Positions 26,135 through 44,592 of a stretch of DNA of 57,103 bases are shown here, one piece after another (position 1 is the stretch's first letter; each line of letters opens with the position of its first letter). The notes below the pieces were generated by a model, which searched no databases, was not told the origin of the DNA, and saw only the letters and a list, made by a program, of their open reading frames with translations. Both the position numbers and the translations under genes were made by a program. Source of the stretch: Bacillota bacterium. GTDB lineage: Bacteria > Planctomycetota > Phycisphaerae > Tepidisphaerales > Tepidisphaeraceae. The DNA lies in contig JBLNDH010000042.1 in assembly GCA_050261455.1 (NCBI GenBank), forward strand, positions 1 through 57,103, given 5' to 3'.

Positions 26135-26160
26135 TGCATCTTGTAGGACTCGAACCTACA
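26135..26160 (-). repeat. att-like direct repeat A: tRNA T-arm + acceptor 3' strand + discriminator (minus-strand sense)
   Basis: tgcaTcttgtaggactcgaacctaca. Its reverse complement is GTAGG-TTCGAGT-CCTAC-AAGATGC-A. It matches 44545-44570 at 25 of 26 positions. No 5' acceptor strand or D-arm lies at the proper distance. Confidence 0.55.
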
Positions 26161-26406
26161 GAGAATCCTGCGATTTCCTCGGAAAAACAGAAGATCCGCT
26201 TGGCCGAGGGTAGCAAATCGGGTAGCAACCTCTCTGATTCGACCGATCTAGACCATGGTTTGCAGGACATGGCGAAGGTATGGGCCAACCTCCCCGAACA
26301 AACCCGGTCCGAAATCCTCGCTTTGATCCAGGCTGCCAAACCCAAGCAAGATCGATAGCCAATCCCCCTCGCCCATCGGCGGCATCCCGGCAACCTGGCG
26401 GAGCCG

Positions 26407-26882
26407 TTGCCCATTTCCGACGACCTCAGTCTCATCCCCCTCTCTTCAACGCCGCCGCGAGGCGGCTAGACGACTTCCCGGCCGGTTGCCCCATCCGAGT
26501 CATTGCCCATCTGGACCGTTGCCCCTTTGCCCCGTTGCCTGACACACAGGGGGATCAAATCCACCCTGATCGACATCCCCAGGGAGAGCCTTCGCCCCCT
26601 TGCCCAGTGGAACAGAAAAGGCATGGGCGGAGCCACCCGCCGTTGCCCAGTTGCCCGATCTACCGGGGGATCAATTTGCCTTAATCTGAGTGGTGATAGG
26701 CGGTAGCCTTTGCCCGGCAGACTGGAAAAACCCATTGACCAGCAATCCGAAAACCCCTCTTTTGCTCGCCCCCGCCATCCTGGCATCGACAGGGCGAGAG
26801 AACTTGGCTCTTTGCGGCCGTTGCCCCATTATCCGCTTATCGGGAGGATTGACACGCCAGCGGCATGGCCGCGACCTTGCCC
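26407..26882 (+). repeat. Array of 13 same-strand TTGCC(C/T) hexamers in non-coding DNA (iteron / arm-site-like)
   Basis: TTGCCC at 26407, 26486, 26503, 26519, 26527, 26600, 26643, 26651, 26710, 26821 and 26877. TTGCCT at 26535 and 26686. The motif is usually preceded by G/C-(G/T)T. GGGGGATCAA occurs at 26549 and 26665. Confidence 0.85.
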
Positions 26883-27171
26883 CGACTGATAGCCGGGCAG
26901 TACCTACGCCCCCACCTCGCCGACAAAACCCCATGGCTGCAACGCACGGCCCCGATTCAGATGGCGGATGATCAGAAGCCTACGCCAAGGGAGGACGACG
27001 TTGCAGGCGTACAGCCAAGCCCGTAGGACAGCAAACCGGTTACTATGCCCATGATCCCCCTGCTGTACGCGCCCCTGTTGGATGCGAGGGCGAGAGTTCT
27101 TTTTCCTGGCAGCGAAGCAAACAACCCCGGCCATGGCTTATCTGGCCTGATCTTCATGCTGCAACGGGACC

Positions 27172-27209
27172 AAAGAAAAACCCCCGCCTCATGCTGGATG
27201 AGACGGGGG
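27172..27209 (-). terminator. Rho-independent terminator for the 27466-27242 ORF
   Basis: Minus-strand cccccgtctcat-ccagc-atgaggcggggg (11/12 bp) followed by tttttcttt. It lies 33 nt after the ORF stop. Confidence 0.6.
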
Positions 27210-27241
27210 CGTCACGATGGCAACACTTGATGCCCGATTGG

Positions 27242-27466
27242 CTAGGCGATGCCACACGCCAACAGGGCAAGGCGGGCAGCTATTTCCTTACGAACCATGC
27301 TGGGACGGGCAAATTGCTCGCGGACGTAGTCGGGGGCGGCCGGCAGCATTTCATTCTGAATCTGAAGAATGAGGTCGGCCGCCCTCATTAATAACCACAT
27401 CTCCGCCAGGTGTTCCCGGCTGGTCTGCGGGATGGAGTTCTGCACGGGGGTCTGTGTCGTTTGCAT
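27242..27466 (-). CDS. Small hypothetical protein (74 aa)
   Basis: MQTTQTPVQNSIPQTSREHLAEMWLLMRAADLILQIQNEMLPAAPDYVREQFARPSMVRKEIAARLALLACGIA. Support comes from the strong downstream terminator and the AT-rich upstream region. I recognise no family. Confidence 0.45.
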   Translation of the reverse strand: MQTTQTPVQNSIPQTSREHLAEMWLLMRAADLILQIQNEMLPAAPDYVREQFARPSMVRKEIAARLALLACGIA

Positions 27467-28043
27467 GGTTCGCTTTCCTTATGCTTGGACTCGCAAGGTT
27501 CGCCGCTCTGTCCCATGGCCTAGCAATGGTGCAGAGTATGCCTAATGAATCCGAGCGTGGCAAACAAACACATGTTTATACTATAGTCACAATACACGTA
27601 GCATCATCGTTTCACTATACTGCTGGGCATTCGCATGCTCGGCAGTCATCGGGTATGATGTAGCATCCGACGGCAGGATTGCCCCACCCCTCCCCCGGTA
27701 CCACCCTTGAGCTTGGGTCCCATCGGGCAGGATTCCCGTATCTATCATGTCCCGACTATCATGAGATCAACTTTGACAACCTTGACAGCGACTGCTCACC
27801 AGAGTCCGCTGCCATCCATGGCCCCGCTTACGATTCAGCCGAGTCGTAATCAATTCCAGATCGGTACGCAGCACCGAAGCGCAAAACGATATGGCCAATA
27901 TTACATTGCTGCCCCACAATCCCCTGTCGCGAAAACTCGGTTTATTTTACAAGCCGGCCGGAATTTCCTCTAGATAGGGGAGGCTGACGAGCCCCGCGCG
28001 TGTTGCGGGTCGCTACGCAACAGTGTTCTCAACCAGGAGTTTC

Positions 28044-29318
28044 ATGCAACGTCCGCAGAAGCCGTATCCGGAGTTTCCACTGACCGCTTGCACAAACGGA
28101 CAGTGGCGAAAGATCGTCAAGGGCCAGCCCTACTACTTCGGTTCTTGGCGGACCGATCCCAAAGGCGAAAACGCCCTGAGGCTGTGGCTTGCGCGCAAGG
28201 AGGCCATTCTCGCCGGGCTCTACCGCGTGGACACTACCCCGAGCAACACCGCCAATGACCTGACGGTGGGCGAGCTCGTGAACAAATACCTGGCGATCAG
28301 AGGCCGCGACGTGGAGGCGGGCCGTATCGCGCCCGGCACCTACGGCGATTACATGGCCAATCTCAAAGACTTCGCCGACTTTGTTGGCCCCCGCGTGAAA
28401 GTCGCCATCCTCAAGCCGGGGCACTTCTCGGCCTATCGAGCCACCCTCGAATTGCGCAAGCTGGGGGCTCACGCCACCAGGCGGGTGATCGTCAACGTCA
28501 AGACCGCCTTCAAGTACGCCGTGGACGATGGGTGGATCACTTCGATCTGCTTCGGACGCGCATTCGTGGCCCCGCAAACCGATTCCGAAGCCGTGGCCCT
28601 GTCCTGCCTGCGGGCCGGTAAGGAGAACCGCACCGAGCGGATACTGGTCCGGCGCGAGGTCCGGCGGCTTCTTCGGGCCACGACCTTCAAGCCCAAGTGG
28701 CGGGCCATCGTGCTGCTGATGCTCAATGCGGCCATGAACCCCGCGGAAATCGCCCGCCTGAAATGGGCCGAGATCAACTTCAAGAGCGGCCGGCTCCGGC
28801 GTCGGCGGTGGAAGACGGGCATCCTGCAGGAAGCCTATCTCTGGAAGATCACGCGGAAGGCCCTGGAAGCCCTTCCCCGCGACGATGCGGAATGGGTCTT
28901 CGTTCGCCCCAACGGCCAACTGCTCGTGAATACAGAGCCCGTCAAGGGCAAGAAGGGTTCCGGGGAAGAGGCGATCGTGCATATTCGCCGCTCCAACCGC
29001 ATTTCCCGGCCCTTCCGCGATCTGGCGGAGGCCGCCGGCATCGAACGCATCACGCCCTACACCCTGCGTCGCACCGCTCGCACCGTCGCTGCTCATTGTC
29101 CTGATGACAACGCGGCCAAACGAATGATGGGCCAGCGATTGACGGGCCGGGACAATACCTACATCAAGGGCAGGTTCCCCTTGGCCCGACTGAAGGCGAT
29201 CGCCCGGACCCTCCACGATCGTCTGGTTGCGGCAAAGCCACAAGCCCCGAAGGACAAAGGTAGGTCCGGCAACGACGAGAATACCCCAGAGCAAGATAAC
29301 GGCCATTCGGGGCAATAA
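28044..29318 (+). CDS. Tyrosine-recombinase-fold integrase (integrase 2), full length, with apparently non-canonical active-site residues
   Basis: AGGAG RBS 4 nt before ATG 28044. SAM-like domain LTVGELVNKYLAIRGRDVEAGRIAPGTYGDYMANLKDFADFVG. Catalytic-domain pattern ...LNAAMNPAEIARLKWAEINF...RRRRWKTG...ITPYTLRRTARTVAA...MGQRLTGRDNTYIKG. Confidence 0.85.
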   Translation: MQRPQKPYPEFPLTACTNGQWRKIVKGQPYYFGSWRTDPKGENALRLWLARKEAILAGLYRVDTTPSNTANDLTVGELVNKYLAIRGRDVEAGRIAPGTYGDYMANLKDFADFVGPRVKVAILKPGHFSAYRATLELRKLGAHATRRVIVNVKTAFKYAVDDGWITSICFGRAFVAPQTDSEAVALSCLRAGKENRTERILVRREVRRLLRATTFKPKWRAIVLLMLNAAMNPAEIARLKWAEINFKSGRLRRRRWKTGILQEAYLWKITRKALEALPRDDAEWVFVRPNGQLLVNTEPVKGKKGSGEEAIVHIRRSNRISRPFRDLAEAAGIERITPYTLRRTARTVAAHCPDDNAAKRMMGQRLTGRDNTYIKGRFPLARLKAIARTLHDRLVAAKPQAPKDKGRSGNDENTPEQDNGHSGQ

Positions 29319-29337
29319 CCGGCATGCGATCCTCCGT

Positions 29338-30015
29338 TCAGCACCACGATACTTGGAGACAATGTGGCATCGGGTCGAATTGGCCCTCCTCTTGGTCGAT
29401 AGGCTGCTCATGGAGCAACTCAACATCCCGGTTCTCCAGCCATTTCTTGAGATAGAACGTTCTGAATACCTTCTTGATGAAAGCCGTGAAGCACATGGCC
29501 TCATTCACGTGAAGCCGTGCCTCCTCGAACTGCATATGGAGATGAACTAGCGGGTGGTCCTCGCGTTCTTGTTGCGGATCGAAGTCAAACCGCATGGGGG
29601 ATCGCAGACTAAGCTCACATATGTCTCTCGCGGCTCGTGGCGATTCGATGCACATAGCCAGACCATCACACAAGTCGTTCAAGGTCTCAGCCGGTGACGG
29701 AAACTTCACCGGGCATGGCCAGTACCACAGGGTATGCTCGACGATCGAGTTCCCCTCACAGACGTAGGATGCCCTAACAAGTGAATTATCAAACAGAATG
29801 CAGGTAAACTCGCCGCCCTTGACCCATCCCAGATACTGCTCAAGCGACCCGAAAGGATGCTGATGACCGCTTCCAGCCTCGCTGCTTCTCCACGAAATGC
29901 GGGTTCGGCCGTTAGCTGTGACTTCATGCGGCGTGTTGTAAAACCGCACAAGCTTGATCGCGTATAGGCTCTCGCACGTACTGGCAATGTGCTCGGCTAC
30001 CTGCCTAGCGTTCAT
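29338..30015 (-). CDS. DUF2290-like protein (family assignment from memory)
   Basis: ATG 30015 lies inside the 3' end of the upstream helicase ORF, with an 11-nt overlap. 225 aa. Cys/His-rich core ...WYWPCPVKFPSP...MRFDFDPQQEREDHPLVHLHMQFEEARLHV. Confidence 0.7.
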   Translation of the reverse strand: MNARQVAEHIASTCESLYAIKLVRFYNTPHEVTANGRTRISWRSSEAGSGHQHPFGSLEQYLGWVKGGEFTCILFDNSLVRASYVCEGNSIVEHTLWYWPCPVKFPSPAETLNDLCDGLAMCIESPRAARDICELSLRSPMRFDFDPQQEREDHPLVHLHMQFEEARLHVNEAMCFTAFIKKVFRTFYLKKWLENRDVELLHEQPIDQEEGQFDPMPHCLQVSWC

Positions 30016-31140
30016 CGCGTTCACCACCCTCCTTCAGCGCTCGCAGCAGTTCGCGAAGTTGTGGCATCGCATCGGGCGACAGCACACCTTGGCGGACAAG
30101 TTCGATGACTTCCTCCAGGTTCCGAGCAGCCTTCCGGATCTGTCCCTTTTCCTGTGCGGTACGATCACGGTTGATGCGACGCACCTTCTCCAACTCGGGC
30201 GATGTCGGGATACGGAATCGCAGCTTGAAGTCGCGGCTGGTGACCTGGTCGATTTCCTTCTGGAGCGTCGCCATGCCCTGGCCAATGCCGCAAATTCGCA
30301 CCCAGCAGCGGGAGCGGGTAATCCCTGTGAAAAGCACATTTCGCAAGCGGATCATCTCGTGTCCGGATGCACAGTGATCTGCATTGGCGATGTAGACCAT
30401 GGGTGCTTCGTTGCCCTTCGCCCGGAAGATCCCCGATACCGTGACAGCTCCTGTTTCCATGAAGGAATCTCGGTCGTTCGTGACGCCCGCCAAGTTCGAG
30501 GAGATACCATAGCTGTCGAGATGTCTCCGAAGCGCGTAGTATTCATCCTTCGCGGAGATCGCATTGGGCAGGATGATCAGAATGTCATCCGGATCAAGCT
30601 CATCCTCTGTGATGTTCCTTTTCACTTGGTCGGCAATCCAGACATTCTGCTCGTCACGAGACTGGAATGCCTTCACTGCGACGGCGTCTGCAGGGTCCAG
30701 TAGCTCCGTAAAGATCGTGGGATAAGATCGCGGAGCACGGGAAAGGGTTACAGTTTCCCCTTCGGTAAGGCTTCCGTGCTCTACCTGATATCCGATCTCC
30801 TCCCACATGCTTGGATCGTCGAAATGCTGCACGATGTGTGATTCTCGGAACAGGCCGAATCCTAGAGCATGGGCAAGAGTCAAGGCCCACGGCGTGTTGC
30901 GATAGCACACGGGTAGGATGATGTCGCGCTGCGGAGCCTCAGCGACGTTGGCCAGGCTAATCTCTCGGCCGAACAGATCGGGCGCGGAAGCCATGCTGGC
31001 ATCAGACAGGTTCTGCAACTCATCATACGCCCAAACAATCCGTTTCGGCTGCTTGGTCATTGCGTCCACGATCTGGAAGAAGGTCGGTGGCAGGTCCTGG
31101 GCCTCGTCGATGAGAATGGCATCATACAGGTCGAGTTGAG
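30005..31140 (-). pseudogene. Superfamily-1 (UvrD/COG3972-like) helicase lacking its N-terminal Walker A half
   Basis: The frame is open upstream of the track start and reads LDLYDAILIDEAQDLPPTFFQIVDAMTKQPKRIVWAYDELQNL (motif II DEAQD). Later motifs are VCYRNTPWAL, GIFRAKGNEAPMVYI and NVLFTGITRSRCWVRICG. No GxGKT is present. Upstream sequence switches to a transposase-like frame. Confidence 0.75.
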
Positions 31141-31341
31141 TGTCTGCTCCACGCTCGAACGCACCACCCGGTCGAGGTGGCCACGGGCCTTCTCGGCATC
31201 CACCGAAAATGCCGCCTTCAAAGCCTCCGTCTCGGTTCCTTCCGACGCCGAATCTGCTACCTTGTCCATCTGGCTCTCCTTCTTTCGGGTAAGGGTTGTC
31301 TTCACACCAACACCTTCCAGGCGGGAGAGCCGACTTTTCAA
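31140..31341 (-). pseudogene. Possible IS256/mutator-type transposase N-terminal scrap
   Basis: MDKVADSASEGTETEALKAAFSVDAEKARGHLDRVVRSSVEQTLNS resembles the ...LRELVRxxVEETLNALLDAE... N-terminus of IS256-family transposases. Only ~25 residues are similar. Confidence 0.25.
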
Positions 31342-31408
31342 TTGTGCGTAACTTTCAAGACGTTACCCCGCTCCTTCGGTACACTCAATCAGGAAACGCA
31401 CAAGCCCG

Positions 31409-31674
31409 CTACCAAAAGACGCAGCCCACAAGTGCGACCGCTTTCAGCAGGTCCCGGTGAATCCGGATCGCACTCTGGCTCAAGATGGACCCCACCATGT
31501 ACGCCACGCTGTGCTTGGGCGTGGAGGATGAAGCCCTACCATTGGAATGCTCAGGCACATGTACACCTGATCCACCAGGCAGTGGCCTCGCAGAACTTCC
31601 ACCTGCTTCTCCCGACACAGGTCCCGCAGGATTGGCCCGATTCGCCCCCATAGAGGATGATTGCAGCCTTTCAC
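31409..31674 (-). mobile_element. tnpA: IS200/IS605-family TnpA (Y1 transposase) remnant, frameshifted and 5'-truncated
   Basis: Frame 1 reads PLWGRIGPILRDLCREKQVEVLRGHCLVDQVYMCLSIP. Frame 2 reads PKHSVAYMVGSILSQSAIRIHRDLLKAVALVGCVFW. Together these parallel ...LRKLCEYKGVEIIEGHxMxDHIHLLVSIPPKYSVSQFMGYLKGKSSLMIF...NRHFW. Confidence 0.65.
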
Positions 31675-33035
31675 GGGATCACTTCTGTCTCACAACCCTC
31701 CTGAGTCACGGCTCCAGATTGTACGCGGGAGGCATCGCCGGAAGACTGGACACTATCCCGCATCACCTTAAGTGCAAGCATGAGATTCGCCTGGGTCCAC
31801 AGCAGCGGCGTGGCGTCACTTGGCACACGCCGGCCATCTTCGATGTAATACAACTCCGGACACCGCCATTCGGGGAACCCAGAATCGGGGCTGGTCAGTT
31901 GACCGAGCGAACGGTTCAGATACTTCGTCTGAAGGCGGAAAAACTCACCGTTCCGCGTAGCCTGATATCGCAAGCCATAAATAGCCGAGATGATCGGATC
32001 GAATATGCACCACTGCGCCTCATTGCCTCGCTGCGCCATGGTGTCCCGCGCAACCATGTTCTCACTGTAGTCGATCGTGCGTTTCTCCGCCGTTACCTTC
32101 TTTTTGTAGTCCGGTGCCCAGTACGAATCGCCAACGTACCGGCGGACGCCGTGATCGCCCTGGAGGTTCTCAAGGACATCCTGCAGTACGCGGTCAGCAA
32201 TCTTGCCGGTGATGACTTCGAGAGGATAGATGAGGAACAGCAGCGCAGCATCATACCGACGCCTTTGGGGCGACTTGGCCTGAATACACTCGGCAGGCAA
32301 GATCCTTCTTAAGGACGCCCTACCTTTCGCGATCAACTCGTCAAGCAAATGTCTTGGCCTTCTGTGCTTCGCGTTCAACGGAGATGAAGTCCACAGTCGC
32401 CTCAGTTCAAGCAGTCCGGCCACAACCGCTCCGATGCTCGATGCGGATATCTTCCTGATCTCCTCCCAATGTCCGCTGTCTTCATCCTTCCAGAAGGCGA
32501 CGGACTTGAGATACTTGGCCAGAAGCCACAGCGTATCCAAGTCAGTCTGTTCAGGCTTGATTAATCCTTTGCAGGCAAGCTTCGAATAGAACCAGATAAA
32601 ATAGCCCAACGCGTCATTCTGCGCATGCGGCCATTTCTCATCGATATCGCCAAGGGTCAACCCGTCGAACCGAATATGGGGACGACACATGACGTTCTTG
32701 GGGCTAACACCTCTTCTGCTGATCATCGTTCGGCACCGACTGCACTGTTTGCGAAAGTGGTCCATAAGGGCACATGCAGTCCGGGCGGCAACGTCGGCCT
32801 CGCCGAGGACGTAATGGGCATGGGCGATGTGCACGTTATCGCGTACCCAAACGCTGGCGTAGCCAGTGTAGGCCGTCTCGCCAGTGACCGAGGCTGCAGG
32901 AAACAGTCCGTTGTTGAGAGTGGGGAAACTGAAAACGCCCTTGTCAGACAACTCACGTCGGATCGCTCGGACTTTCTCAGACGTGTAATGGAACCGCAGC
33001 AAATCGAGCAGTGCTTCATTCTGAACAACAAGCAT
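31671..33035 (-). CDS. GH15-fold (glucoamylase / phosphorylase-kinase-regulatory-like) protein, no signal peptide
   Basis: Start MLVVQNEALLDLL (ATG 33035). YASVWVRDNVHIAHA, WPHAQNDALGYFIW, EDSGHWEEIRKISASSIGAVVAGL, GVRRYVGDSYW, EAQWCIFDP and TPLLWTQANLMLAL. Confidence 0.8.
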   Translation of the reverse strand: MLVVQNEALLDLLRFHYTSEKVRAIRRELSDKGVFSFPTLNNGLFPAASVTGETAYTGYASVWVRDNVHIAHAHYVLGEADVAARTACALMDHFRKQCSRCRTMISRRGVSPKNVMCRPHIRFDGLTLGDIDEKWPHAQNDALGYFIWFYSKLACKGLIKPEQTDLDTLWLLAKYLKSVAFWKDEDSGHWEEIRKISASSIGAVVAGLLELRRLWTSSPLNAKHRRPRHLLDELIAKGRASLRRILPAECIQAKSPQRRRYDAALLFLIYPLEVITGKIADRVLQDVLENLQGDHGVRRYVGDSYWAPDYKKKVTAEKRTIDYSENMVARDTMAQRGNEAQWCIFDPIISAIYGLRYQATRNGEFFRLQTKYLNRSLGQLTSPDSGFPEWRCPELYYIEDGRRVPSDATPLLWTQANLMLALKVMRDSVQSSGDASRVQSGAVTQEGCETEVIP

Positions 33036-33251
33036 TCGAGTGACCTTTCTGGTCCCCGTTCCAGTACAAAGGCGACACCATAGCATCACTGCGGACCGAA
33101 TCGCCCCCGGTGAACCAGGGTCCGACTGTCTGGCACAGTATCAAAGATCCAGGGATCCTTGCAAGGTCCTTCGAGAGGCATCCCCTGGAGCCACACGACC
33201 GCGGTCACGATCTCCCCCCCCGCATCCGTCATATGCCCCTCTACCAACCTT

Positions 33252-35252
33252 CTATTTGCTCCACGGGAATGCTCGCCAAATCCTGACTAAGAGTTGCCAT
33301 GGAGATCGCGCCGCAATCCCCGCCTTCGATACAATAGCGTATGCAGCTATGCCACCCAACAGCCCAATTGCGAAAGTGCAACCAAGCTTCGCAACCGAAC
33401 ACCGTTTCATATCGTCTATAAAGGGCCAAAAGATTTGAGGGACAGTGAGCGCAGCCACAAAGATCGCCAACCAATCTACAGCGGTTTGGATATCTTCTTC
33501 GCGGAGAGCCCGAAGGTGGGCGTGGATCTCATCCAGTTGTCTCCGCATCTGCTTTACCTGTCCCTGCAGATTGACACCCTTGCTGATCATGAGGAAGAGA
33601 TCATGTAATGCCATTCTCTGCCAGGAGGATACCGATTCCAGTCTCTCCATTATCATGCTACTAGCCTTAAACAGGCGATCTCGATCCTGGCGATTACTAA
33701 TCGCCAACCTCTCGCCCCTGTTCTTGTTCTTATAGTGCCGGTCAATAGTCGCTTTGGCTCGCTCTCGAACCGCCCGGCAGTAGGCCAATTGGATCTCGCA
33801 GTCGATGCACTCAAACAGCCTAGCCAGCGGACCGTGTTCAAGCCCCGCAATAATTGAAGAGACACCAAAGTACTCGGGACACATTCCCCAATAATCCGTC
33901 TCCCAGTAGCGATTCACAGCGTCGATGTAGCTCTCCGGCAAACCCTCTCCACTAGGCTGTGCGTTGCCGGATCGATTCCTTGCACACCCACGCTCTTTAC
34001 CTTTGGTGAAATTTGCCATCAAGACACCACGGCCAAGGGCTACGACTGAGAAGAAGTCGCGAGTGCCCCACTTGCTTTCGAGCCCTCTCTTGGCACATTC
34101 CTCCGGAACAAATTTGTAACCTTCATCCCCTGTGAGCATGCCATAGATGTTTTTGGGATGAGCCACGATGTACTGCTCGGCATCCATTGGCTCGCCGCTT
34201 GCGGTCTCTCCCGCTGTTCCTTCAATTGGGGCCTTCAACTCCACACACCACATGGGATTCGGCTTTCGGTACTTACGCTTGTCCCCCACCTCACCTCCTT
34301 CCAGCGTTTCCGCTTCAGCACCCGAGACTCGTGTTCCTGCTGCATTCGCGGGGAGTCCCATGGCAGGTTGATTGTCAGGGCGACCGACACCTTCCGAATC
34401 GGCAGCCCTTGATGCAATACCTGCGATCGATGGAACTCCTTGTCGGCTATTTCGCATTTTCGTGTTAGGCTCCTCAGCATCCCACACTGGAGCCCAGTCT
34501 ATTTCATAGTCTTTTCTAAACTGCTCTATGCAAGCGTCAGCAACCTCCATGAGCGAGCAGGTGTAGAGGCCAAGGTCTGTACAAGTCCACCTGATTTTGA
34601 CTTGACCTTCAGCGATCTTCTCGCCAGTGTTCTTACATCTGCAGGGTTGTACCCCTTCCCCGCTCGCCGCATTTGGTCGTGAGATCAGGAATCTGTTCGT
34701 GCACCGCTTTGTGAATCCCTCGCTCTCTGCACGTTCATGCGCACTATGAATGAGGGCCACGAAGTCGTGCGCTCGCACGGAATCCAGATGGATGTTCACT
34801 GTCAAATACGCCACACCAGAGCCTACATGAAGATGCACCAAGACAATCACCTTGGCGGTGTCCTGCCCATCGCGGAGATGCACTTTGATCGTATTCGGCC
34901 TGAAAAGGTACCTCTGTATGCTGTCCCCGTCGAGCCTGTCGGAAATGGTTCTCAATGATTCGAATTGCCATGCGAGTCGGGACACCGTATTGGGCCTAGG
35001 AGCCGCTTTATCATGGCCCACAGTTGCACCGTTCAGGTACCAGAAATGAGCGGTGTTCTTCCCCAACAGGCCTTTTGGGTTAACGTCTAACAGTTGAGCG
35101 AATGGATAAATGAAGCAGATGGATGCGCCCGACTCCGCGTCGGTCTCGATGAAATCTTCTTCTACGACCTTCGCCTGTGCGACAGACTCTAGGATGTGGC
35201 CTACGCTTTGGGCCACTGCAGCGCCGCCTTGTGAACTCTGATCTGAATTCAT
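33252..35252 (-). CDS. 666-aa hypothetical protein with a CorA-like C-terminal coiled coil and two-TM hairpin
   Basis: AAGGAGG RBS 6 nt before ATG 35252. The C-terminus reads ...QVKQMRRQLDEIHAHLRALREEDIQTAVDWLAIFVAALTVPQIFWPFIDDM...LGCTFAIGLLGGIAAYAIV. There is a low-complexity linker mid-protein. No GMN motif. Confidence 0.8.
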   Translation of the reverse strand: MNSDQSSQGGAAVAQSVGHILESVAQAKVVEEDFIETDAESGASICFIYPFAQLLDVNPKGLLGKNTAHFWYLNGATVGHDKAAPRPNTVSRLAWQFESLRTISDRLDGDSIQRYLFRPNTIKVHLRDGQDTAKVIVLVHLHVGSGVAYLTVNIHLDSVRAHDFVALIHSAHERAESEGFTKRCTNRFLISRPNAASGEGVQPCRCKNTGEKIAEGQVKIRWTCTDLGLYTCSLMEVADACIEQFRKDYEIDWAPVWDAEEPNTKMRNSRQGVPSIAGIASRAADSEGVGRPDNQPAMGLPANAAGTRVSGAEAETLEGGEVGDKRKYRKPNPMWCVELKAPIEGTAGETASGEPMDAEQYIVAHPKNIYGMLTGDEGYKFVPEECAKRGLESKWGTRDFFSVVALGRGVLMANFTKGKERGCARNRSGNAQPSGEGLPESYIDAVNRYWETDYWGMCPEYFGVSSIIAGLEHGPLARLFECIDCEIQLAYCRAVRERAKATIDRHYKNKNRGERLAISNRQDRDRLFKASSMIMERLESVSSWQRMALHDLFLMISKGVNLQGQVKQMRRQLDEIHAHLRALREEDIQTAVDWLAIFVAALTVPQIFWPFIDDMKRCSVAKLGCTFAIGLLGGIAAYAIVSKAGIAARSPWQLLVRIWRAFPWSK

Positions 35253-35830
35253 AAACGTCCTCCTTCTCTTGAAATGCAGATTCCGAAGGCGAGGCCCCTG
35301 CTACCGATCTCTCCACACAGGACCACCACAGGCCATGACATGACCCCACCTTACTTGGTTGTCGATTTTACTCTTTTTGCTTGGCTACCGCTAACAACTC
35401 TTTCAAGGGAGGCACAACGTAGCCGTAACCGGCGGCACCATTTCGCTCCGGTCCGGGACCTGGGAGCACCGTTACTTCCTTATTTGCAGTCCATTGCCGC
35501 CGAGAACATAGTTGCCGAACTTCGTCCATTCCGAGGGGCTGTCCGACCTAACAACGGCCATCGGTGGGCTGTTGGCAAGCAACAGGCGAACTTGAACGCC
35601 AAGGTGATAGTGATCGGGCAGGAGTGGGGAGGCGTGACAGCCCCTTGCGGGCCGCTTACGTTTTGACCGTTCCGTCAGATGTCGAAGGTGTCGGCAAAGA
35701 TGTGAAGGATAGTGGGTTTAGCGCAACAGGGAAGGCAGCTCGCGCTCAGCATGAATTCCGCTCAATAGGTGTCGCCGGCTACACTCAATGCACCAGTGGC
35801 CCTATTCGCCCAAGTCGCGAAGGACTTGCT

Positions 35831-36391
35831 TCATTCGTCCGTGTGAACAAGCCGAGTGTACCCGGGTGGCGGCCAAGCCGGCCCACTGCTTTGCGGCGTG
35901 GTTGGGTGATGTCTACGCTGTCGCCTTTCTTGCGGGGGTGGCGGTTGGACCGGCTGCACCGTCAGCAATGCGGCCGGATCGATGCGATAGATCTTCTTGC
36001 GAACCGAGCCGTATTCCAGGGCTGGCAGCTTGCCTCTCTCGATCAGCCTGCGGATGGTCCACCGAGACACACAGGCTCGCTCGGCCGCCTGCCTCTCTGT
36101 CAGCAACTCGCCCCGGCGTTCTGATGCTCCCTCACGTCGCACAACAGGATTCGTGAGGGTCAGTCCGTGAATCTCAATCTGGCCGATCTTCTGGCGCACG
36201 ACCTTGGCCGCAAATTCGTGACCATCGGGCACACGGGCGACGAGTTGGACACGGAACCACTCGGCATCCTCCTTATCGCTCGTGGCGATGTGTTCGCCTC
36301 CATGGGGCAGTTCGCTTAACTCGATCGGCTGGGTTTCCCAGGATCGATCGTCAGATGAATGTATGAGTAAAAGTATCTTCATGGGGAACAT
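35831..36391 (-). CDS. Excisionase/MerR-type HTH_17 DNA-binding protein with an unknown N-terminal domain
   Basis: LTERQAAERACVSRWTIRRLIERGKLPALEYGSVRKKIYRIDPAAL is a typical HTH_17/Xis motif. The tail is Pro-rich. Start is ATG 36391 or 36382 (the track gives TTG 36403). Confidence 0.7.
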   Translation of the reverse strand: MFPMKILLLIHSSDDRSWETQPIELSELPHGGEHIATSDKEDAEWFRVQLVARVPDGHEFAAKVVRQKIGQIEIHGLTLTNPVVRREGASERRGELLTERQAAERACVSRWTIRRLIERGKLPALEYGSVRKKIYRIDPAALLTVQPVQPPPPQERRQRRHHPTTPQSSGPAWPPPGYTRLVHTDE

Positions 36392-36573
36392 ATTATGCCC
36401 CAATGTTCGGCGGCTGAACTCCCTCTAAACCGCACACCAGTATTCGGACGTCCGCATGATGCCGCAACAGTCAAGTTACTCAGCAATGTGCCGATGGCAA
36501 GTCAGGGTCAGCGAATGCCTACCCAACGCCTTCGCTTAGATCCGACTCGCGACGGCAGCCAAAGGAGGCCAAC

Positions 36574-39475: not shown

Positions 39476-39715
39476 ATGGATCAGGCAAGTTTGGCTACGA
39501 CGGTGGCGGACCTCTTGAGCGATGCGGAGGCAGCGGCACGGGCGAAGGTTTCAGTAACGTCGATCAGGAACTGGATCAAGCGAGGGAAGTTGTCGGCAGT
39601 AAAACTGGGGTGGGCGATGCGGATCTCACGCAGCGAACTCGACGCTTTCTTGGCGAAGCGTGGCGGCAAAGTGTCCTCGGTGGCCACGGAGGGTACCGCC
39701 GATGAACAACGATAG
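39476..39715 (+). CDS. HTH_17/excisionase-family DNA-binding protein
   Basis: GGAGGAG RBS, then ATG 39476. LLSDAEAAARAKVSVTSIRNWIKRGKLSAVKLGWAMRISRSELDAFL. Its stop overlaps the next gene's start. Confidence 0.75.
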   Translation: MDQASLATTVADLLSDAEAAARAKVSVTSIRNWIKRGKLSAVKLGWAMRISRSELDAFLAKRGGKVSSVATEGTADEQR

Positions 39716-41927
39716 AGATGAGCTGCCGCTAAGCATCGCTTCGAAGCGGGATGACGTACGCAAGTGGCTCGCAGGATTGGCACCGTGGCGCTGCGACGAT
39801 CGGGCGTGCTGGCTCGAAGCCGGTATGGTCCTGCAATGGTGGTCAGCCCAGCTTGCGAGAATCGGGTACGACCTGAGCGACGAGTTGTTGGATTTGTGGG
39901 TTGATTGGAGCAGTCAGAGTACCAAGTTCGTTCCGGGCGAGTGTGAGCGGCAATGGGAAGGTTTCGATGCCAGCCGGCCGAATCCCGCGAAGCTCGGAAC
40001 CCTGGCTGCATGGTACAAGGAGGACCAGCAAGCCCCCGACTCCGCATCAACTGAGCTCCAAGCGGCCCAAGATCAAGCGGAGGACTACGGGGAGCGGATC
40101 AAGACCCTGAATGCGGATGAGGTGAAAGCTCTGTCCGCCAAGCTGAAGATCACGAAGTCGGCCAAGCTCGTGGTGACCCCGACGAAGCCCACCAAGCCTG
40201 CGGCGATCATGACAAAGCCGCCACGGCATACGCCGGGCGTTGGAACACTCGATGCCATGATCGCAGCCACGGCCAAGAAGCTCGGTGCCGTGAAAACGAC
40301 GCCGTACCCCTACCCCGAAAGGCCCGATGGGTCACTACTTTGCCCTGTTCGGTTCGACTTGCCAGACGGGGGCAAGGCATTCTGCCAATTCTCCCGGGGT
40401 GCCGATGGCCAGTGGCGGCGTGGGGGACTGGATGGCCCCAGCCCCCTCTACGATCTGCCGAAGATCAAGGCGGCGGACAAGAGCGTGCCGATCTTCGTTG
40501 TTGAGGGTGAGAAGTGTGCTGGCGCGGGAACCGAAATCGGTCTGTTGACGACAACAACCGCTGGCGGTGCTCAGTCGCCCGGCAAGTCCGATCTAACGCC
40601 ACTGGCCGGCAGAACGATCTACCTCTTGCCGGACGCCGACGAGCCCGGCGAGGCGTATTCGCGGAAGCTGCAGCAGTTATTCGCTGAGCTGAACCCGCAG
40701 CCGAAAGTGAAGGTGATTCGCCTGCCCGGCCTGCCGGCGAAGGGCGACTTATACGATTTTGTCCAGATCCGCAAGGCAGAAGGAAAGACGCCGGAGCAGA
40801 CCAAGGCAGAGATACTAAGCCTGGCGGCATCGGCCGAATTGGTCGATTTGCTGGACTTCAGGGGCCGTCCCCTGCTTCGCCGAGCCTCGGACGTGGAGTA
40901 TCAGCCCATCCGTTGGCTGTGGCCCGGCTTCATCGCTCTGGGCAAGCTAGCTCTACTGGCAAGCGACCCCGGCTGCGGGAAGTCAACTCTGTCCTGTGAT
41001 TTGGCTGCCCGCATCTCGCGGGGTATGCCATGGCCCGATGCCCCCAACAGCCCGAACGAATCCGGCAGCGTCTTGATGCTGAATGTGGAGGACGATGCCA
41101 GTGATACGGTGCGTCCCCGCCTTGAGGCGGCCGGAGCGGACCTAAGCAAGATCACAATCCTCGAAGGAGTTCGGCGTCATGACAAGAACGGGAAAACTCG
41201 GGATGAGATGTTCTGCCTTGAACAGCACCTTCCTGCACTGGAGTCGGCGATCCGCCAGACTTCCGAATGTCGTCTGATTGTGCTCGATCCTCTGGGCGCG
41301 ATCATGGGGCGAACCGACGGCAACAAGAATGAGGAGGTGCGGGGACTGCTCGCACCGCTCGCGGCATTGGCCGCCCGGTACGGCGTGGCGATCCTAGGAA
41401 TCACGCACCTAAACAAAAGCTCCGGCGGATCGGTGGCATATCGCGTGTTGGGCTCAATCGGCTTCACCGCTGCGGCCCGATGCGTCTTCGGTGTGGCACG
41501 CGATCGTCAGGACCCGACGCGGCGGCTGTTCGTCCCCCTCAAGTCCAACATCGCCGTCGACACCCACACGTTAGCGTACAAGTTGGAGGAATCCAGCATT
41601 CCTGGGATCGCTCGCCTTCGATGGGAGAGTGTTCCCGTCGATATCCGCCCGGAGGATGCGTTTGGAGATGCAGCCAACTCCACTCCCACCAAGACCGACC
41701 AAGCGGGTGAATGGCTTCGCGAAGCTCTGGCCGAAGGCGAAGTTCCCAGCGAAGAGGTTTTCCGTAAGGGTCGCCGAGACGGATTCGCCGTCAGTGCCAT
41801 CCGCCGAGCTGCAGAAGCCCTCGGTGTGCGGGCACGAAAGCGGGGATTCCAAGGCCCCTGGGTGTGGAGGCTACCTGCTGGTGACGGAAACGACACCGAC
41901 CAAGATGCCAGTCCCAAGGCAGATTAG
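39702..41927 (+). CDS. Primase-helicase fusion: PriCT-2-like region + Toprim + AAA_25/RepA-type (RecA-fold) ATPase
   Basis: ATG 39702 overlaps the upstream stop. CDDRACWLEAGMVLQWW...LWVDWSSQSTKFVPGECERQWEGF (PriCT-2-like). IFVVEGEKCAGAG...IYLLPDADEPGEAY (Toprim). LLASDPGCGKSTLSCDLAARIS (Walker A). LIVLDPL (Walker B). Confidence 0.9.
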   Translation: MNNDRDELPLSIASKRDDVRKWLAGLAPWRCDDRACWLEAGMVLQWWSAQLARIGYDLSDELLDLWVDWSSQSTKFVPGECERQWEGFDASRPNPAKLGTLAAWYKEDQQAPDSASTELQAAQDQAEDYGERIKTLNADEVKALSAKLKITKSAKLVVTPTKPTKPAAIMTKPPRHTPGVGTLDAMIAATAKKLGAVKTTPYPYPERPDGSLLCPVRFDLPDGGKAFCQFSRGADGQWRRGGLDGPSPLYDLPKIKAADKSVPIFVVEGEKCAGAGTEIGLLTTTTAGGAQSPGKSDLTPLAGRTIYLLPDADEPGEAYSRKLQQLFAELNPQPKVKVIRLPGLPAKGDLYDFVQIRKAEGKTPEQTKAEILSLAASAELVDLLDFRGRPLLRRASDVEYQPIRWLWPGFIALGKLALLASDPGCGKSTLSCDLAARISRGMPWPDAPNSPNESGSVLMLNVEDDASDTVRPRLEAAGADLSKITILEGVRRHDKNGKTRDEMFCLEQHLPALESAIRQTSECRLIVLDPLGAIMGRTDGNKNEEVRGLLAPLAALAARYGVAILGITHLNKSSGGSVAYRVLGSIGFTAAARCVFGVARDRQDPTRRLFVPLKSNIAVDTHTLAYKLEESSIPGIARLRWESVPVDIRPEDAFGDAANSTPTKTDQAGEWLREALAEGEVPSEEVFRKGRRDGFAVSAIRRAAEALGVRARKRGFQGPWVWRLPAGDGNDTDQDASPKAD

Positions 41928-41974
41928 CCGGACGAGCGGAGGAGTATCGATTTCACCCTGTTGAGAGGAGGAGA

Positions 41975-43441
41975 ATGAGCATCGAGAACACACAACAAGA
42001 TTGCAGAGAACAACAGCAAGCGTCAGGCGATGGCTACCAGCCATTCCCCACGCACCTATTGTCCGCTCCCGCGGCCACTTTCATCCGCGAAACTGCGGCC
42101 GCGATGGGAGTTGACGAGGCCTTCATCGCCGTACCGATGCTGCCCGTTGTGGCGTCCGCGATCGGCAACAGCCGACGCATCACCTTGAAGCCCGGCTGGT
42201 CCGAGCCCTCCGTGATCTGGGCGGCAACGGTCGCGGAGTCCGGTTCCGCCAAGTCTCCGGCGCTTGCAGCCGCAACGCAGCCCGCGTGGGCTCGCCAGCA
42301 GGTCGCGGATGAATCAAAGCATTTTGTCACTTCCGACACGACGATTCCGGCCCTGATGGATCGCTTGGCCAACAACCCGAGGGGCCTGCTGGTCGTCAAT
42401 GACGAGTTGAGCGGATGGCTGGGCCGATACCGGAACGGCAGGTGGGCAAGTGACCTCGCCGCCTATCTCAGCATGTTCGGGGCCGGACCAGTGAAGATCG
42501 ATCGCAAGGGGGGCCAGGAGCCTTCGCTTTTCATCCCCCGCGCCGCCGTGAGCATTACCGGCGGCGTCCAACCGAAAGTCCTGGGTCGCGTGCTGACCCA
42601 GGAGTTGCTCGATAGCGGGTTGGCCGCCCGGTTCTTGTTCGCCATGCCGCCCCGGCAGGCAAAGATGTGGACGGAGCAGGGCGTCACGCCGGAGACGTCG
42701 GCAGCAATGTTGCGGTTGCTCGATACCCTCTATGGCTTGTCGCCCGCACAGGACAGAGAGCCTATTGATTTGCCGATGACTGAATCGGCCACCGCCCTGT
42801 GGGCAGCTTTCTTCGATGCCCATGCCAAGGAGCAAGCGGAGTTGGGCGACAGCAGATTGGTTGCCGCGTGGGCGAAGCTGGAGGGCTACGCCGCGAGACT
42901 GGCTTTGGTGGTGCATTGCCTTCGGCAAGCCGCCGGGGAAGCAGTGGACCCGTGGCACGTTGACGACAAGAGCCTAGCCGCCGGGGTGGAGTTGGTCTCA
43001 TGGTTCAAGGGCGAAACTCAGAGAATCTATCAGACTCTCGTGAAGGGCAATGGAAGGCGGGCAACACGCTCAGCCTCACCTGCCCAGACCGCCTCAATGC
43101 CTCTCTTCGAAGAGGCTGGGAGGCGAATGAGTGAATTCGAACATCGGTATACCGCGTCACGAATGAGACAGGTGTCCAACCTGCTCATCGCCATTCGTGA
43201 ATGCGTGTCCGGTCAGGGAGAACGCTCCGCTAAGGACGATACGCTGGTCGAGCGGGTTGATGCCTTGATCAGCGGCGTGGCTCGGTTGAGGCTGTTCGGT
43301 CAAGAGGCCGCCCGTGTTGACGGTTTGGGCGAGGTCGTTAGTTATTTCCCCGGCCACTATCTAGAAGACACCCCGTTTGTTGACGACGACTGCGGCAGCG
43401 ACTTCGTGGCAACCATGGAGCGGGCGAGTCAGACGCGGTAG
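41975..43441 (+). CDS. DUF3987 (YfjI-like) protein
   Basis: GAGGAGGAG RBS. FPTHLLSAPAATFIRETAAAMGVDEAFIAVPMLPVVASAIGNSRRI...VAESGSAKSPAL...LLVVNDELSGWLG...ISITGGVQPKVL...LAARFLFAMPP. Confidence 0.85.
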   Translation: MSIENTQQDCREQQQASGDGYQPFPTHLLSAPAATFIRETAAAMGVDEAFIAVPMLPVVASAIGNSRRITLKPGWSEPSVIWAATVAESGSAKSPALAAATQPAWARQQVADESKHFVTSDTTIPALMDRLANNPRGLLVVNDELSGWLGRYRNGRWASDLAAYLSMFGAGPVKIDRKGGQEPSLFIPRAAVSITGGVQPKVLGRVLTQELLDSGLAARFLFAMPPRQAKMWTEQGVTPETSAAMLRLLDTLYGLSPAQDREPIDLPMTESATALWAAFFDAHAKEQAELGDSRLVAAWAKLEGYAARLALVVHCLRQAAGEAVDPWHVDDKSLAAGVELVSWFKGETQRIYQTLVKGNGRRATRSASPAQTASMPLFEEAGRRMSEFEHRYTASRMRQVSNLLIAIRECVSGQGERSAKDDTLVERVDALISGVARLRLFGQEAARVDGLGEVVSYFPGHYLEDTPFVDDDCGSDFVATMERASQTR

Positions 43442-43470
43442 TTCGGGAATCGTTTCGAGGACAAAGGAGG

Positions 43471-43794
43471 ATGAGAGTGCCTATTAGTCTAAAAGACCTA
43501 TTGGAGCGAGAAGGGCTAACTGAGGCGGATGTCGTGTTCGTAGGGCAGCCCGCACAGCCCCACGAATCCGCCACACCGCAACGGGAAATTCGCTTGGATG
43601 AGTTGCTCCGGCAAGCGGGTACCTCCGAATACGCTATTCAGCGTTCGCCGGCTGCGGTGGCGACACCTCAACAGGGAATTCCGCTTGATCAATTGCTGGC
43701 TCAAGCGGGCCAGTCGGCTCCAGACTTCCTTAGCGACGATCAGATAAGCCGCATGGGCGGCGAACCAAGGGGCGCCGAGCACGCCGGGCGTTGA
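43471..43794 (+). CDS. Small hypothetical protein with three (I/L)xLxxLL(x)xxG repeats
   Basis: AAGGAGG RBS, then ATG 43471. ISLKDLLEREG, EIRLDELLRQAG and GIPLDQLLAQAG. Its 3' end runs into the truncated integrase 3. Confidence 0.55.
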   Translation: MRVPISLKDLLEREGLTEADVVFVGQPAQPHESATPQREIRLDELLRQAGTSEYAIQRSPAAVATPQQGIPLDQLLAQAGQSAPDFLSDDQISRMGGEPRGAEHAGR

Positions 43795-44510
43795 CCCCGG
43801 AGCAGGTGATTGCCCTTCTGGATAAGGTGCCACAAAATCACCGACCCGTTTACCGGTTCATCCTCGGCACTGGCCTACGCCGGCAAGAGGCTGTGGACCT
43901 TATTTGGGGCGATGTGCATCTGGACTCGCCCACACCGTTTCTAGCCTTGCGAGCCAAGGCAACGAAGGCACGGCGAGCTGATACGTTGCCCCTGCGGGCG
44001 GACATAGCAACCGAATTGAAGCAATTGCGTGGCGATGCGAACGACGCGGATAGCGTCTTCCCTGCCTTCCCCAGCATGGCCGAGCATCGGGGGTACCTCA
44101 AGGCCGCAGGCATCCCATGGGAGGACGAACAAGGTCGCCGGGCTGACTTCCACGCTTTGAGGCATACCTATGGCACACTGCTGAGCAAGGCTGGCGTGTC
44201 GCCCCGTGAAGCCATGGAACTGATGCGCCACACCGATCTTCGCTTGACCATGAAGGTATATACCGACCCCCGATTGTTCGATTTGGCCGGAGCGGTCGAG
44301 AAACTCCCCTTGCCCACTTTCAAGCCGGCCGCCATTGCCCAGCAAGCGAACGGGACCGATGGGAAGGCTATTAATCAGGATATTGCTTCCGTACAGGTAG
44401 CAGATCGGGTAGCAACTGCTACCCTTCATGGCCCCTCACTACCCCCAATGGCGCGATCATCCGCGTCCGATAATACCGCCGTAAATGCTGGTGCTGCCCC
44501 TAACTGCAAA

Positions 44511-44540
44511 CAAAAACCCCCGATCGTCATTGACCGGGGG
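44511..44540 (-). terminator. Rho-independent terminator 4 nt after the tRNA-like 3' end (minus strand)
   Basis: Minus-strand cccccg-gtcaatgacgat-cggggg followed by tttttg. Confidence 0.55.
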
Positions 44541-44544
44541 TTAG

Positions 44545-44592
44545 TGCACCTTGTAGGACTCGAACCTACAACCTACGGCTCCGTAGGCTCCC
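44545..44592 (-). repeat. att-like direct repeat B: 3' ~48 nt of a tRNA (variable-arm-like hairpin, T-arm, acceptor 3' strand)
   Basis: The reverse complement reads gggagCCTACGGagCCGTAGGtt-GTAGG-TTCGAGT-CCTAC-AAGGTGC-A. No complementary 5' acceptor strand (gcacctt) occurs within 100 nt upstream. The core matches 26135-26160. Confidence 0.6.

What the first reader, a model, noticed from the sequence alone, without database searches (positions are those of the whole stretch)
26135..44570. 18.4-kb segment bracketed by 25/26-nt direct repeats that are tRNA 3' ends without tRNA bodies
tgcaTcttgtaggactcgaacctaca (26135) and tgcaCcttgtaggactcgaacctaca (44545) are in direct orientation. Read on the minus strand each is T-stem/T-loop/T-stem/acceptor 3' strand/discriminator. 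Each is followed on the minus strand by a hairpin plus T-run (26061-26086 and 44511-44540), as expected for the native downstream flank of a tRNA gene. Copy B also retains a variable-arm-like hairpin. Neither copy has a 5' acceptor strand, so both look like displaced distal junctions. This implies serial integrations into tRNA genes followed by loss of the functional tRNA end.
Basis: partly seen in the sequence, partly recalled or inferred. Interest (0 to 1): 0.62.

Follow-up and report, generated by a model that had tools for sequence, protein, structure and literature searches.

The report
Decayed tRNA-Arg island, integrase spans attP
The two repeats are the true left and right attachment sites of an 18.4-kb, now-crippled mobile island that inserted into an arginine tRNA gene; this is an ordinary kind of element, with the twist that its integrase gene runs across its own attachment site, so integration cuts a conserved tail off the enzyme.

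Summary
The repeats at 26135-26160 and 44545-44570 are 25/26 identical, direct, and equal nt 48-73 of a tRNA on the minus strand. Each is followed by a terminator, and ARAGORN and Rfam call no tRNA anywhere in the window.

The parent is tRNA-Arg(ACG). The T-arm and acceptor alone also equal tRNA-Lys(CTT) of three MAGs.

A and B are a cognate attR/attL pair of one element:
- A truncated tyrosine integrase ends 235 nt before B. In 34 of 46 relatives an intact convergent tRNA sits at that position.
- The same tandem arm repeat lies in both arms.
- Joining B to the flank of A restores an open integrase frame ending in a conserved tail (…W..LP…IL.IV…). This holds in 7/7 elements, and one natural unsplit protein exists.

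So attP lies inside the integrase gene, as in Myxococcus phage Mx8.

B lacks the first 26 nt of the tRNA. The most likely cause is a second integration at the anticodon arm, which left an ~0.9-kb remnant to its right.

The island is decayed: one integrase is truncated, the other lacks Arg-I, and a helicase is halved.

The parts
26066..26086 (-). Terminator-like hairpin plus T-run, 49 nt downstream of copy A in tRNA sense. It is the candidate native flank of the target tRNA.
26135..26160 (-). att copy A, the distal junction (attR type, P-O-B'). It equals tRNA nt 48-73 with one mismatch (A for G at nt 70).
26161..26358 (+). Displaced 3' end of the integrase reading frame (P arm). It reads in the same frame as the core and ends in the conserved tail ...MAKVWANLPEQTRSEILALIQAA... 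(26281-26328), followed by a stop.
26209..26229 (+). Arm-type tandem repeat GGTAGCAAATCGGGTAGCAAC in the P arm, 49 nt from the core.
28023..29318 (+). Second tyrosine-integrase-like gene (431 aa). It is unrelated in sequence to the att-linked one, and Asn stands where Arg-I is expected.
29338..31069 (-). Candidate defence pair: DUF2290 (29338-30027) plus an SF1 helicase of which only profile positions 353-694 of 707 remain (30005-31069).
31671..36403 (-). Cargo block: GH15-like protein (31671-33089), a 666-aa protein with a weak CorA-like end (33252-35252), and an HTH_17 protein (35831-36403).
39660..43441 (+). Replication backbone: PriCT_2 + AAA_25 primase-helicase-like protein (39660-41927) and DUF3987 protein (41975-43441). 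Homologues lie just upstream of the integrase in related elements (L086, L087, L088, L105).
43791..44627 (+). Truncated att-linked integrase. Only residues 193-365 of the family remain (catalytic domain 43791-44309, 71% identical to the paralogue at 16751-15657). The frame runs on through the P' arm and copy B and stops at 44627 in tRNA-antisense sequence.
44396..44416 (+). Arm-type tandem repeat GGTAGCAGATCGGGTAGCAAC in the P' arm, 129 nt from the core.
44515..44542 (-). Terminator supplied by the element for the rebuilt tRNA. It lies inside the integrase linker frame.
44545..44570 (-). att copy B, the integrase-proximal junction (attL type, B-O-P'). It equals tRNA nt 48-73 exactly.
44571..44595 (-). 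Rest of the target tRNA-Arg(ACG), nt 27-47: the anticodon arm and variable loop, with a 3-nt insertion in the 5' strand of the anticodon stem. tRNA nt 1-26 are absent.
44596..45453 (+). Remnant of about 0.86 kb of a second, unrelated element, or other strain-variable DNA. It holds a 140-aa orphan gene (44677-45099). Related soil strains share sequence only from 45454 rightwards.

Best explanation
**What it is.** The 18.4-kb segment is one integrative element. It entered a tRNA-Arg(ACG) gene on the minus strand by tyrosine-integrase recombination in the T-arm region.

**The two junctions.**
- Copy A is the distal junction. It joins the element's P arm to the old 3' end of the tRNA and its terminator.
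- Copy B is the proximal junction. It joins the tRNA body to the 3' end and terminator supplied by the element, followed by the integrase.

**Integrase layout.**
- In this integrase family attP lies inside the integrase gene, downstream of the catalytic tyrosine.
- The circular form encodes catalytic domain, ~80-aa linker, ~9 residues read antisense from the tRNA core, ~40-aa spacer, and a conserved ~25-aa tail.
- Integration leaves the tail at the far end of the island (26161-26358). The integrase then ends in tRNA-antisense filler.
- This works like phage Mx8 IntP/IntX. Inferred: the tail swap tunes the integration/excision balance.

**Second event (inferred).** A second event with a breakpoint at the anticodon arm replaced tRNA nt 1-26 next to B. 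This was most likely integration of another element, either before or after island 1. Only ~0.9 kb of that DNA remains before the core-like sequence resumes.

**Present state.** The island is now a fossil:
- the att-linked integrase lacks its N-terminal 192 residues;
- the other integrase lacks Arg-I;
- the defence helicase is halved.
For: **Repeat and tRNA identity**
- The repeat is real and beyond chance.
- Contigs of soil runs continue from 44588 with the reverse complement of a tRNA 5' half. The rebuilt 74-mer is called tRNA-Arg(ACG) by ARAGORN.
- B aligns to nt 27-73 of that tRNA and A to nt 48-73.

**Family architecture**
- In 34 of 46 relatives of the integrase, a convergent intact tRNA or tmRNA lies 160-289 nt after the catalytic domain. 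Six more relatives lack enough sequence to tell.
- B lies at 235 nt in the window.
- Six relatives carry the distal repeat within the fetched locus. It is 23-31 nt long, against 26 nt here.

**Arm sites**
- The same tandem word occurs in the P' and P arms in 6 of 7 elements, including the window. None of 200 shuffles reached it.

**attP inside the integrase gene**
- The integrase frame stays open into the tRNA in 34/34 relatives, against 0/68 control frames.
- The in-silico excision joint gives an uninterrupted frame ending in the conserved tail in 7/7 elements.
- A natural unsplit protein, P0006, lies on contig L172. It carries catalytic domain, antisense tRNA core and tail, and the contig has no tRNA call.
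- Integrated-form proteins P0004, P0005, P0007 and P0018 end in tRNA-antisense peptides.

**Element backbone and composition**
- AAA_25 helicase and DUF3987 homologues lie next to the integrase in L086, L087, L088 and L105.
- G+C is 0.54-0.60 across most of the segment, rising to ~0.62 in the replication module at its right end, against 0.64-0.66 in the left flank.

**Decay**
-.
Against: - No intact tRNA adjoins B, and none lies anywhere in the window. The canonical island signature is therefore incomplete.
- No empty site or circle junction was seen in public runs. Only low-depth contigs of related strains were available.
- Related strains diverge at 25636 and 45454, not at A and B. The variable block is therefore ~1.4 kb larger than the island, and its outer history is unresolved.
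- The second element is inferred from 0.86 kb with one orphan gene.
- The window comes from a metagenome assembly. A misjoin at the 51-nt tRNA-like stretch cannot be excluded for the outer flanks.
- The function of the tail is untested.
Confidence: 0.75

Rival explanations
1. Both copies are displaced distal junctions left by serial integrations, and the functional tRNA end has since been lost from the locus and perhaps from the genome.
For: - Neither copy has a tRNA body.
- Both are followed by terminators.
- Related strains share sequence only from 45454 rightwards, and there is no tRNA up to 57103.
Against: - B sits at the integrase-proximal position, where relatives hold the intact tRNA.
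- The terminator after B lies inside the element's own integrase linker frame.
- By general knowledge, tRNA-Arg(ACG) is the usual decoder of CGU/CGC/CGA, so outright loss from the genome is unlikely.
Confidence: 0.2
2. After a single integration, a deletion or illegitimate recombination removed tRNA nt 1-26 and the neighbouring DNA. No second mobile element was involved.
For: - Only 0.86 kb of non-core DNA lies right of B, and no integrase is seen there.
- The island as a whole shows several deletions.
Against: - The breakpoint falls at the 5' edge of the anticodon arm. Sequence 3' of the loop is perfect, while the 5' stem strand is imperfect (3-nt insertion). That pattern is expected of an attP-derived copy at an anticodon-centred site (att sublocations in PMC4383910).
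- The homologous 140-aa gene in another genome also starts ~80 nt from a contig break, at the position equivalent to the edge of the tRNA-like stretch. This suggests it habitually adjoins a repeat.
Confidence: 0.25
3. The target was tRNA-Lys(CTT), not tRNA-Arg(ACG).
For: The 25-mer of copy B is identical to nt 49-73 of tRNA-Lys(CTT) in three MAGs. Copy A alone cannot tell the two tRNAs apart.
Against: The 21 tRNA-derived bases beyond the core at B (44571-44595, which also hold the 3-nt insertion) match the tRNA-Arg(ACG) anticodon arm and variable loop. They do not match tRNA-Lys: alignment score 90 against 50.
Confidence: 0.1
4. This is an assembly artefact. The contig was misjoined at tRNA-like repeats, so the bracket does not exist in any one genome.
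For: - The window comes from a soil metagenome.
- Short-read Logan contigs break exactly at the repeat (L165 starts inside copy B).
Against: - The two inner flanks belong together. They share arm repeats, and the integrase frame and its conserved tail are restored across the joint.
- A 26-nt repeat is shorter than the usual assembly k-mers.
Confidence: 0.07

Closest known systems
tRNA-integrated genomic islands and tandem arrays, as mapped by Islander/TIGER (PMC4383910)
   Same: - A tyrosine integrase is present.
- attP carries a copy of the tRNA 3' part.
- A displaced 3' fragment in the same orientation marks the far end.
- The att site lies in the T-stem region.
- Tandem arrays occur in which inner islands are bounded by fragments.
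   Different: - No intact tRNA remains at the proximal end within the window.
- The array is decayed: one integrase is truncated, and the presumed second element is reduced to ~0.9 kb.
Myxococcus phage Mx8 IntP/IntX, where attP lies inside int (Tojo 1996 and Magrini 1999, as summarised in PMC6070905)
   Same: - It is a tyrosine integrase.
- attP lies in the 3' coding part of int.
- By my own recollection (not stated in PMC6070905), Mx8 likewise integrates at the 3' end of a tRNA gene.
- Integration gives int a new 3' end while the catalytic domain stays whole.
   Different: - No sequence similarity to Mx8 was detected among the 20 hits listed of 368 phage records.
- The host phyla differ (Planctomycetota, Verrucomicrobiota, Acidobacteriota MAGs).
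- The detachable part here ends in a short conserved W..LP...IL.IV tail with no Pfam family.
- The element is a small primase-helicase island, not a phage.
SSV-type 'suicidal' integrases of archaea (PMC7253208)
   Same: The att site lies within the integrase ORF and is translated. Integration splits the gene between the two ends of the element.
   Different: In SSV-type elements the split yields two inactive pseudogenes, and PMC7253208 describes the type as so far restricted to archaea. Here the whole catalytic domain stays intact and only a C-terminal tail is removed.
Small integrative elements with P4-like primase-helicase modules (PriCT_2, AAA_25/DnaB-like, DUF3987/VirE-like) and AlpA/HTH_17 regulators
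   Same: The gene set and its order next to the integrase match.
   Different: No capsid, packaging or conjugation genes were found. Whether the element is a satellite or is mobilisable is unknown.

Membership tests
Canonical tRNA-integrated island (Islander signature) | Tyrosine integrase gene inside the candidate island | tested here: met
   PF00589 hits at 28023-29318 and 43791-44627. Both are defective.
Canonical tRNA-integrated island (Islander signature) | Displaced tRNA 3' fragment at the distal end, in the same orientation as the tRNA | tested here: met
   Copy A equals nt 48-73 and is direct with copy B.
Canonical tRNA-integrated island (Islander signature) | Intact, regenerated tRNA gene at the proximal end | tested here: not met
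   ARAGORN finds 0 genes and Rfam 0. B holds only nt 27-73.
Tandem array of islands at one tRNA | Each member has its own tRNA fragment and its own integrase, and the array ends at the intact tRNA | tested here: inconclusive
   Island 1 has a fragment and an integrase. The presumed second member has a fragment boundary but no integrase, and no tRNA lies within 12.5 kb.
Mx8-type attP-within-int integrases | The att core lies inside the integrase ORF, downstream of the catalytic Tyr | tested here: met
   - The frame is open into the tRNA in 34/34 relatives, against 0/68 controls.
- Joined frames end in the conserved tail in 7/7 elements.
- A natural unsplit protein, P0006/L172, exists.
Mx8-type attP-within-int integrases | Integration into a tRNA gene gives the integrase a different C-terminus | tested here: met
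   Integrated forms end in antisense-tRNA peptides.
Mx8-type attP-within-int integrases | Sequence homology to Mx8 IntP | tested here: inconclusive
   tblastn against 50,697 phage records gave 368 weak hits, all below 60% identity and 21-29% in the 20 listed. No Myxococcus phage was among those 20. No direct pairwise test was made.
Mx8-type attP-within-int integrases | The C-terminal change alters recombination activity or specificity | not testable with these tools
   This needs recombination assays.
SSV-type suicidal integrases | Integration splits the gene into two inactive parts | tested here: not met
   The catalytic domain through the Tyr lies wholly upstream of the core.

The most novel reading that the evidence does not exclude
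A large family of tRNA-targeting tyrosine integrases in Planctomycetota, Verrucomicrobiota and Acidobacteriota uses its own gene structure as a sensor of integration state. Only the excised circle encodes the conserved W..LP...IL.IV tail. The integrated form makes a tail-less enzyme ending in tRNA-antisense filler, and this switch sets directionality without a separate excisionase. The arrangement also means that every fossil island keeps a datable 'tail scrap' at its far end, which pairs its two junctions unambiguously.
Probability: 0.4. Interest if true: 0.6.

Novelty: new member of a known kind. Interest (0 to 1): 0.4.

Why it matters
- **The island itself.** It is an ordinary, decaying tRNA-site island in an uncultured soil planctomycete (Tepidisphaerales-like).
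- **A general annotation tool.** In this integrase family the split reading frame and the paired arm repeats show which two tRNA fragments belong to one element, even when no intact tRNA is left. That helps to dissect island graveyards in metagenome-assembled genomes.
- **Mx8-type layout beyond Myxococcus.**
  - The attP-inside-int layout is the rule in a whole integrase family of three phyla.
  - I found it described in the literature essentially only for Mx8 among bacteria.
  - This gives a set of natural variants for testing whether a detachable C-terminal tail controls integration versus excision.
  - Earlier unchecked notes of this scan report analogous layouts in other families, so the phenomenon may be widespread and under-described.

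Tried and rejected
- **Exact 25-mer in GTDB genomes:** it hit only tRNA-Lys(CTT) of three unrelated MAGs, with no synteny to the window.
- **35-mer of the Arg form in JGI metagenome contigs:** no match.
- **Synteny through the left-flank acyl-CoA synthetase:** the best relative is only 63% identical (a Tepidisphaerales MAG). No tRNA or right-flank genes lie nearby.
- **Extending the contig through exact-protein look-ups:** only 9-kb and 1.8-kb Logan contigs were found. They end at the window edge or inside copy B.
- **A 54-nt contig that looked like an empty site** (loose end ACCTACGGCTCCGTAG at 26160): rejected. It is a high-depth tRNA k-mer unitig that matches copy B exactly.
- **Copy B as an unrecombined attP:** rejected. 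The arm repeat expected in its P arm lies instead beside copy A.
- **The integrase C-terminal extension as a chance open frame in GC-rich DNA:** rejected by the 34/34 versus 0/68 test.
- **IMG/VR search for a free circular form:** one distant relative without this layout.
- **Pfam search of the tails:** nothing.
- **Sequencing runs:** The runs that are served hold only related strains at low depth, so no circle or empty-site joint could be sought.


Full report
**1. Observation**

The two sequences are present as described.
- They are direct and 25/26 identical. The pair extends to 33 nt at 91% identity.
- A 25-mer search allowing three mismatches finds only these two sites, and none in 100 shuffles.
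- ARAGORN calls no tRNA in the whole window, and Rfam gives no match at gathering score.
- Minus-strand terminator-like hairpins with T-runs follow both copies, at 26086-26066 and 44542-44515.

**2. Which tRNA**

- The 25-mer of copy B equals nt 49-73 of tRNA-Lys(CTT) in three unrelated MAGs.
- Contigs of other soil organisms that match 44546-44588 continue rightwards with CGTCGCTCTATCCAATTGAGCTAAAGGTGC. That is the reverse complement of a tRNA 5' half.
- ARAGORN calls the rebuilt 74-mer tRNA-Arg(ACG).
- Copy B aligns to nt 27-73 of this tRNA, with a 3-nt insertion in the 5' strand of the anticodon stem (44545-44595). Copy A aligns only to nt 48-73.
- The target was tRNA-Arg(ACG), whose T-arm and acceptor happen to equal those of a tRNA-Lys(CTT).

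**3. What lies between the repeats**

- Genes:
  - an integrase-like gene (28023-29318);
  - DUF2290 plus the C-terminal half of a PADLOC-listed helicase (profile 353-694 of 707);
  - a GH15-like protein, a 666-aa protein and an HTH_17 protein;
  - a PriCT_2 + AAA_25 primase-helicase-like protein and a DUF3987 protein;
  - an integrase catalytic domain at 43791-44309 whose frame runs through copy B.
- G+C is 0.54-0.60 across most of the segment, rising to ~0.62 in the replication module at its right end, against 0.64-0.66 in the left flank.
- The integrase next to B holds only residues 193-365 of its family. It is 71% identical to a full-length paralogue at 16751-15657, which carries an in-frame TAG.
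- The 431-aa integrase is unrelated to these. Local alignment puts Asn where Arg-I should be.

**4. Family architecture**

I searched GTDB genomes with the paralogue and examined the 46 best-ranked loci (L085-L130), from Planctomycetota, Verrucomicrobiota and Acidobacteriota MAGs.
- In 34 of them an intact tRNA or tmRNA lies convergent, 160-289 nt after the catalytic domain.
- Six more have too little downstream sequence to tell.
- L088 and L110 carry only a T-loop-to-3'-end fragment.
- Copy B lies 235 nt after the domain. It therefore occupies the position of the regenerated tRNA, the integrase-proximal junction.
- In six relatives the distal direct repeat lies within the fetched flank. It is 23-31 nt long, matching the 26 nt here.
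- AAA_25 and DUF3987 homologues lie just upstream of the integrase in L086, L087, L088 and L105. The replication module and the integrase therefore form one backbone.

**5. Proof that A and B belong together**

- The tandem word GGTAGCA(A/G)ATCGGGTAGCAAC occurs only twice in the window. One copy is 129 nt left of B and the other 49 nt right of A.
- Six of seven elements, including the window, share such a word between their P' and P arms at similar distances. None of 200 shuffles reached it.
- The integrase frame reads the core as HLVGLEPT at both copies.
- Joining 44570 to 26161 gives an uninterrupted frame that ends ...DLDHGLQDMAKVWANLPEQTRSEILALIQAAKPKQDR*.
- The same join in the six relatives also gives open frames ending in a conserved tail ((D)L..VV.AW..LP..lkaaILaiV).
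- The integrase frame stays open from the catalytic domain into the tRNA in 34/34 relatives, against 0/68 for the other two frames.
- A natural contig (L172, protein P0006) encodes the unsplit form. It runs catalytic domain, linker, antisense tRNA 3' end, then tail, with no tRNA call.
- Proteins called from integrated copies end in antisense-tRNA peptides.
- attP therefore lies inside the integrase gene, and integration removes the tail.
- Only one such tail exists in the window, beside A.

**6. Why B has no tRNA body**

- The missing part is nt 1-26.
- Sequence is perfect from the anticodon loop to the 3' end and imperfect in the 5' stem strand.
- That is what a distal junction of a second element with an anticodon-centred att site would look like. 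Such sites are one of the two common classes, and tandem arrays are known (PMC4383910).
- The order of the two integrations cannot be told. Both orders give the same product.
- Right of B lie a 140-aa orphan gene and about 0.35 kb of non-coding DNA.
- The few homologues of that gene sit on contigs that begin at the position equivalent to 44596, the edge of the tRNA-like stretch.
- Related strains in soil runs share 25493-25636 at 99% and 45454-55900 at about 96-98%. They diverge at exactly 25636 and 45454.
- The strain-variable block is therefore 25637-45453, about 1.4 kb larger than the island.
- If there was a second element, most of it and the intact tRNA are gone from this place. Alternatively, the block arrived by recombination from a diverged strain.

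**7. Comparison with known systems**

- The island fits the principle of tRNA-site islands. It fails one defining feature, the intact tRNA, so it is best filed as an inner, decayed member of an array.
- The integrase layout works like Mx8 IntP/IntX (PMC6070905). No sequence similarity to Mx8 was detected.
- Earlier unchecked notes of this scan describe the same layout in other integrase families. They are leads only and were not used as support.

**8. Verdict**

B is the proximal junction, its terminator belongs to the element, and loss of the tRNA is unproven.
- This is an ordinary kind of element with an instructive, under-described integrase layout.

**Steps shown:** repeat, tRNA identity, family architecture, split reading frame, arm repeats, decay.

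**Steps inferred:** crossover in the T-arm, a second integration, a regulatory role for the tail.

Noticed in passing
window 15270-16802 (minus strand), 15387-15406 (plus strand): - This is a second integrase-att module of the same family, in inverted orientation.
- The integrase is full length but has an in-frame TAG at 15870-15872.
- 250 nt after its catalytic domain lies a tRNA fragment that holds only the T-loop to the 3' end (TTCGAATCCTACCGCGCCCA). No tRNA body is present, and no matching tail or second copy exists in the window.
- Two perfect 17-nt tandem repeats (15288-15304, 15310-15326) lie beyond the fragment.
   Followed up: partly
L088 and L110 (relatives of the integrase): In these two relatives the integrase is also followed by a tRNA T-loop-to-3'-end fragment with no tRNA body, although 6 kb of downstream sequence is available. 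Junctions without a tRNA body therefore recur in this family.
   Followed up: partly
window 29338-31069: An intact DUF2290 gene is coupled to a helicase of which only the C-terminal half survives (PADLOC PDLC02998 and PDLC03002, profile positions 353-694 of 707). This is a broken candidate defence pair carried as cargo.
   Followed up: partly
window 28023-29318: This is the only full-length integrase-like gene of the island. It shows no significant similarity to the att-linked family, and it aligns Asn to the Arg-I position. It may be catalytically dead or may have another role.
   Followed up: partly
window 25636 and 45454: Related strains in soil runs X2 and X5 are 96-99% identical up to these two points and then diverge. 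The left switch lies 43 nt before the stop codon of the acyl-CoA synthetase. The relatives' ending there is homologous but diverged (MQYQAKAD* against AEYRTAEPDCSAT*), which looks like a recombination tract boundary.
   Followed up: partly
L100, L116 and other Verrucomicrobiota relatives: The arm repeats of these elements (for example GACGCACAAAGA repeated twice) are translated as DAQRDAQR in both the linker and the spacer before the tail of the integrase. The DNA binding sites thus leave a repeated peptide in the protein.
   Followed up: no
window 26407-26882 and 38456-39290: There are dense short repeats inside the island: TTGCCC-type units at 26403-26852, and repeat clusters upstream of the replication module that other first-reader notes report. 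These may be iterons or operators. I did not analyse them.
   Followed up: no
window 1-14700 and 46784-55400: Both outer arms are rich in secreted hydrolases: arabinofuranosidase-like, GH43, GH42-like, BNR, a CotH kinase, a GDSL esterase, and a nucleoside hydrolase fused to a beta-helix. This fits a polysaccharide-degrading soil planctomycete. The best synthetase relative is a Tepidisphaerales MAG at 63% identity.
   Followed up: no
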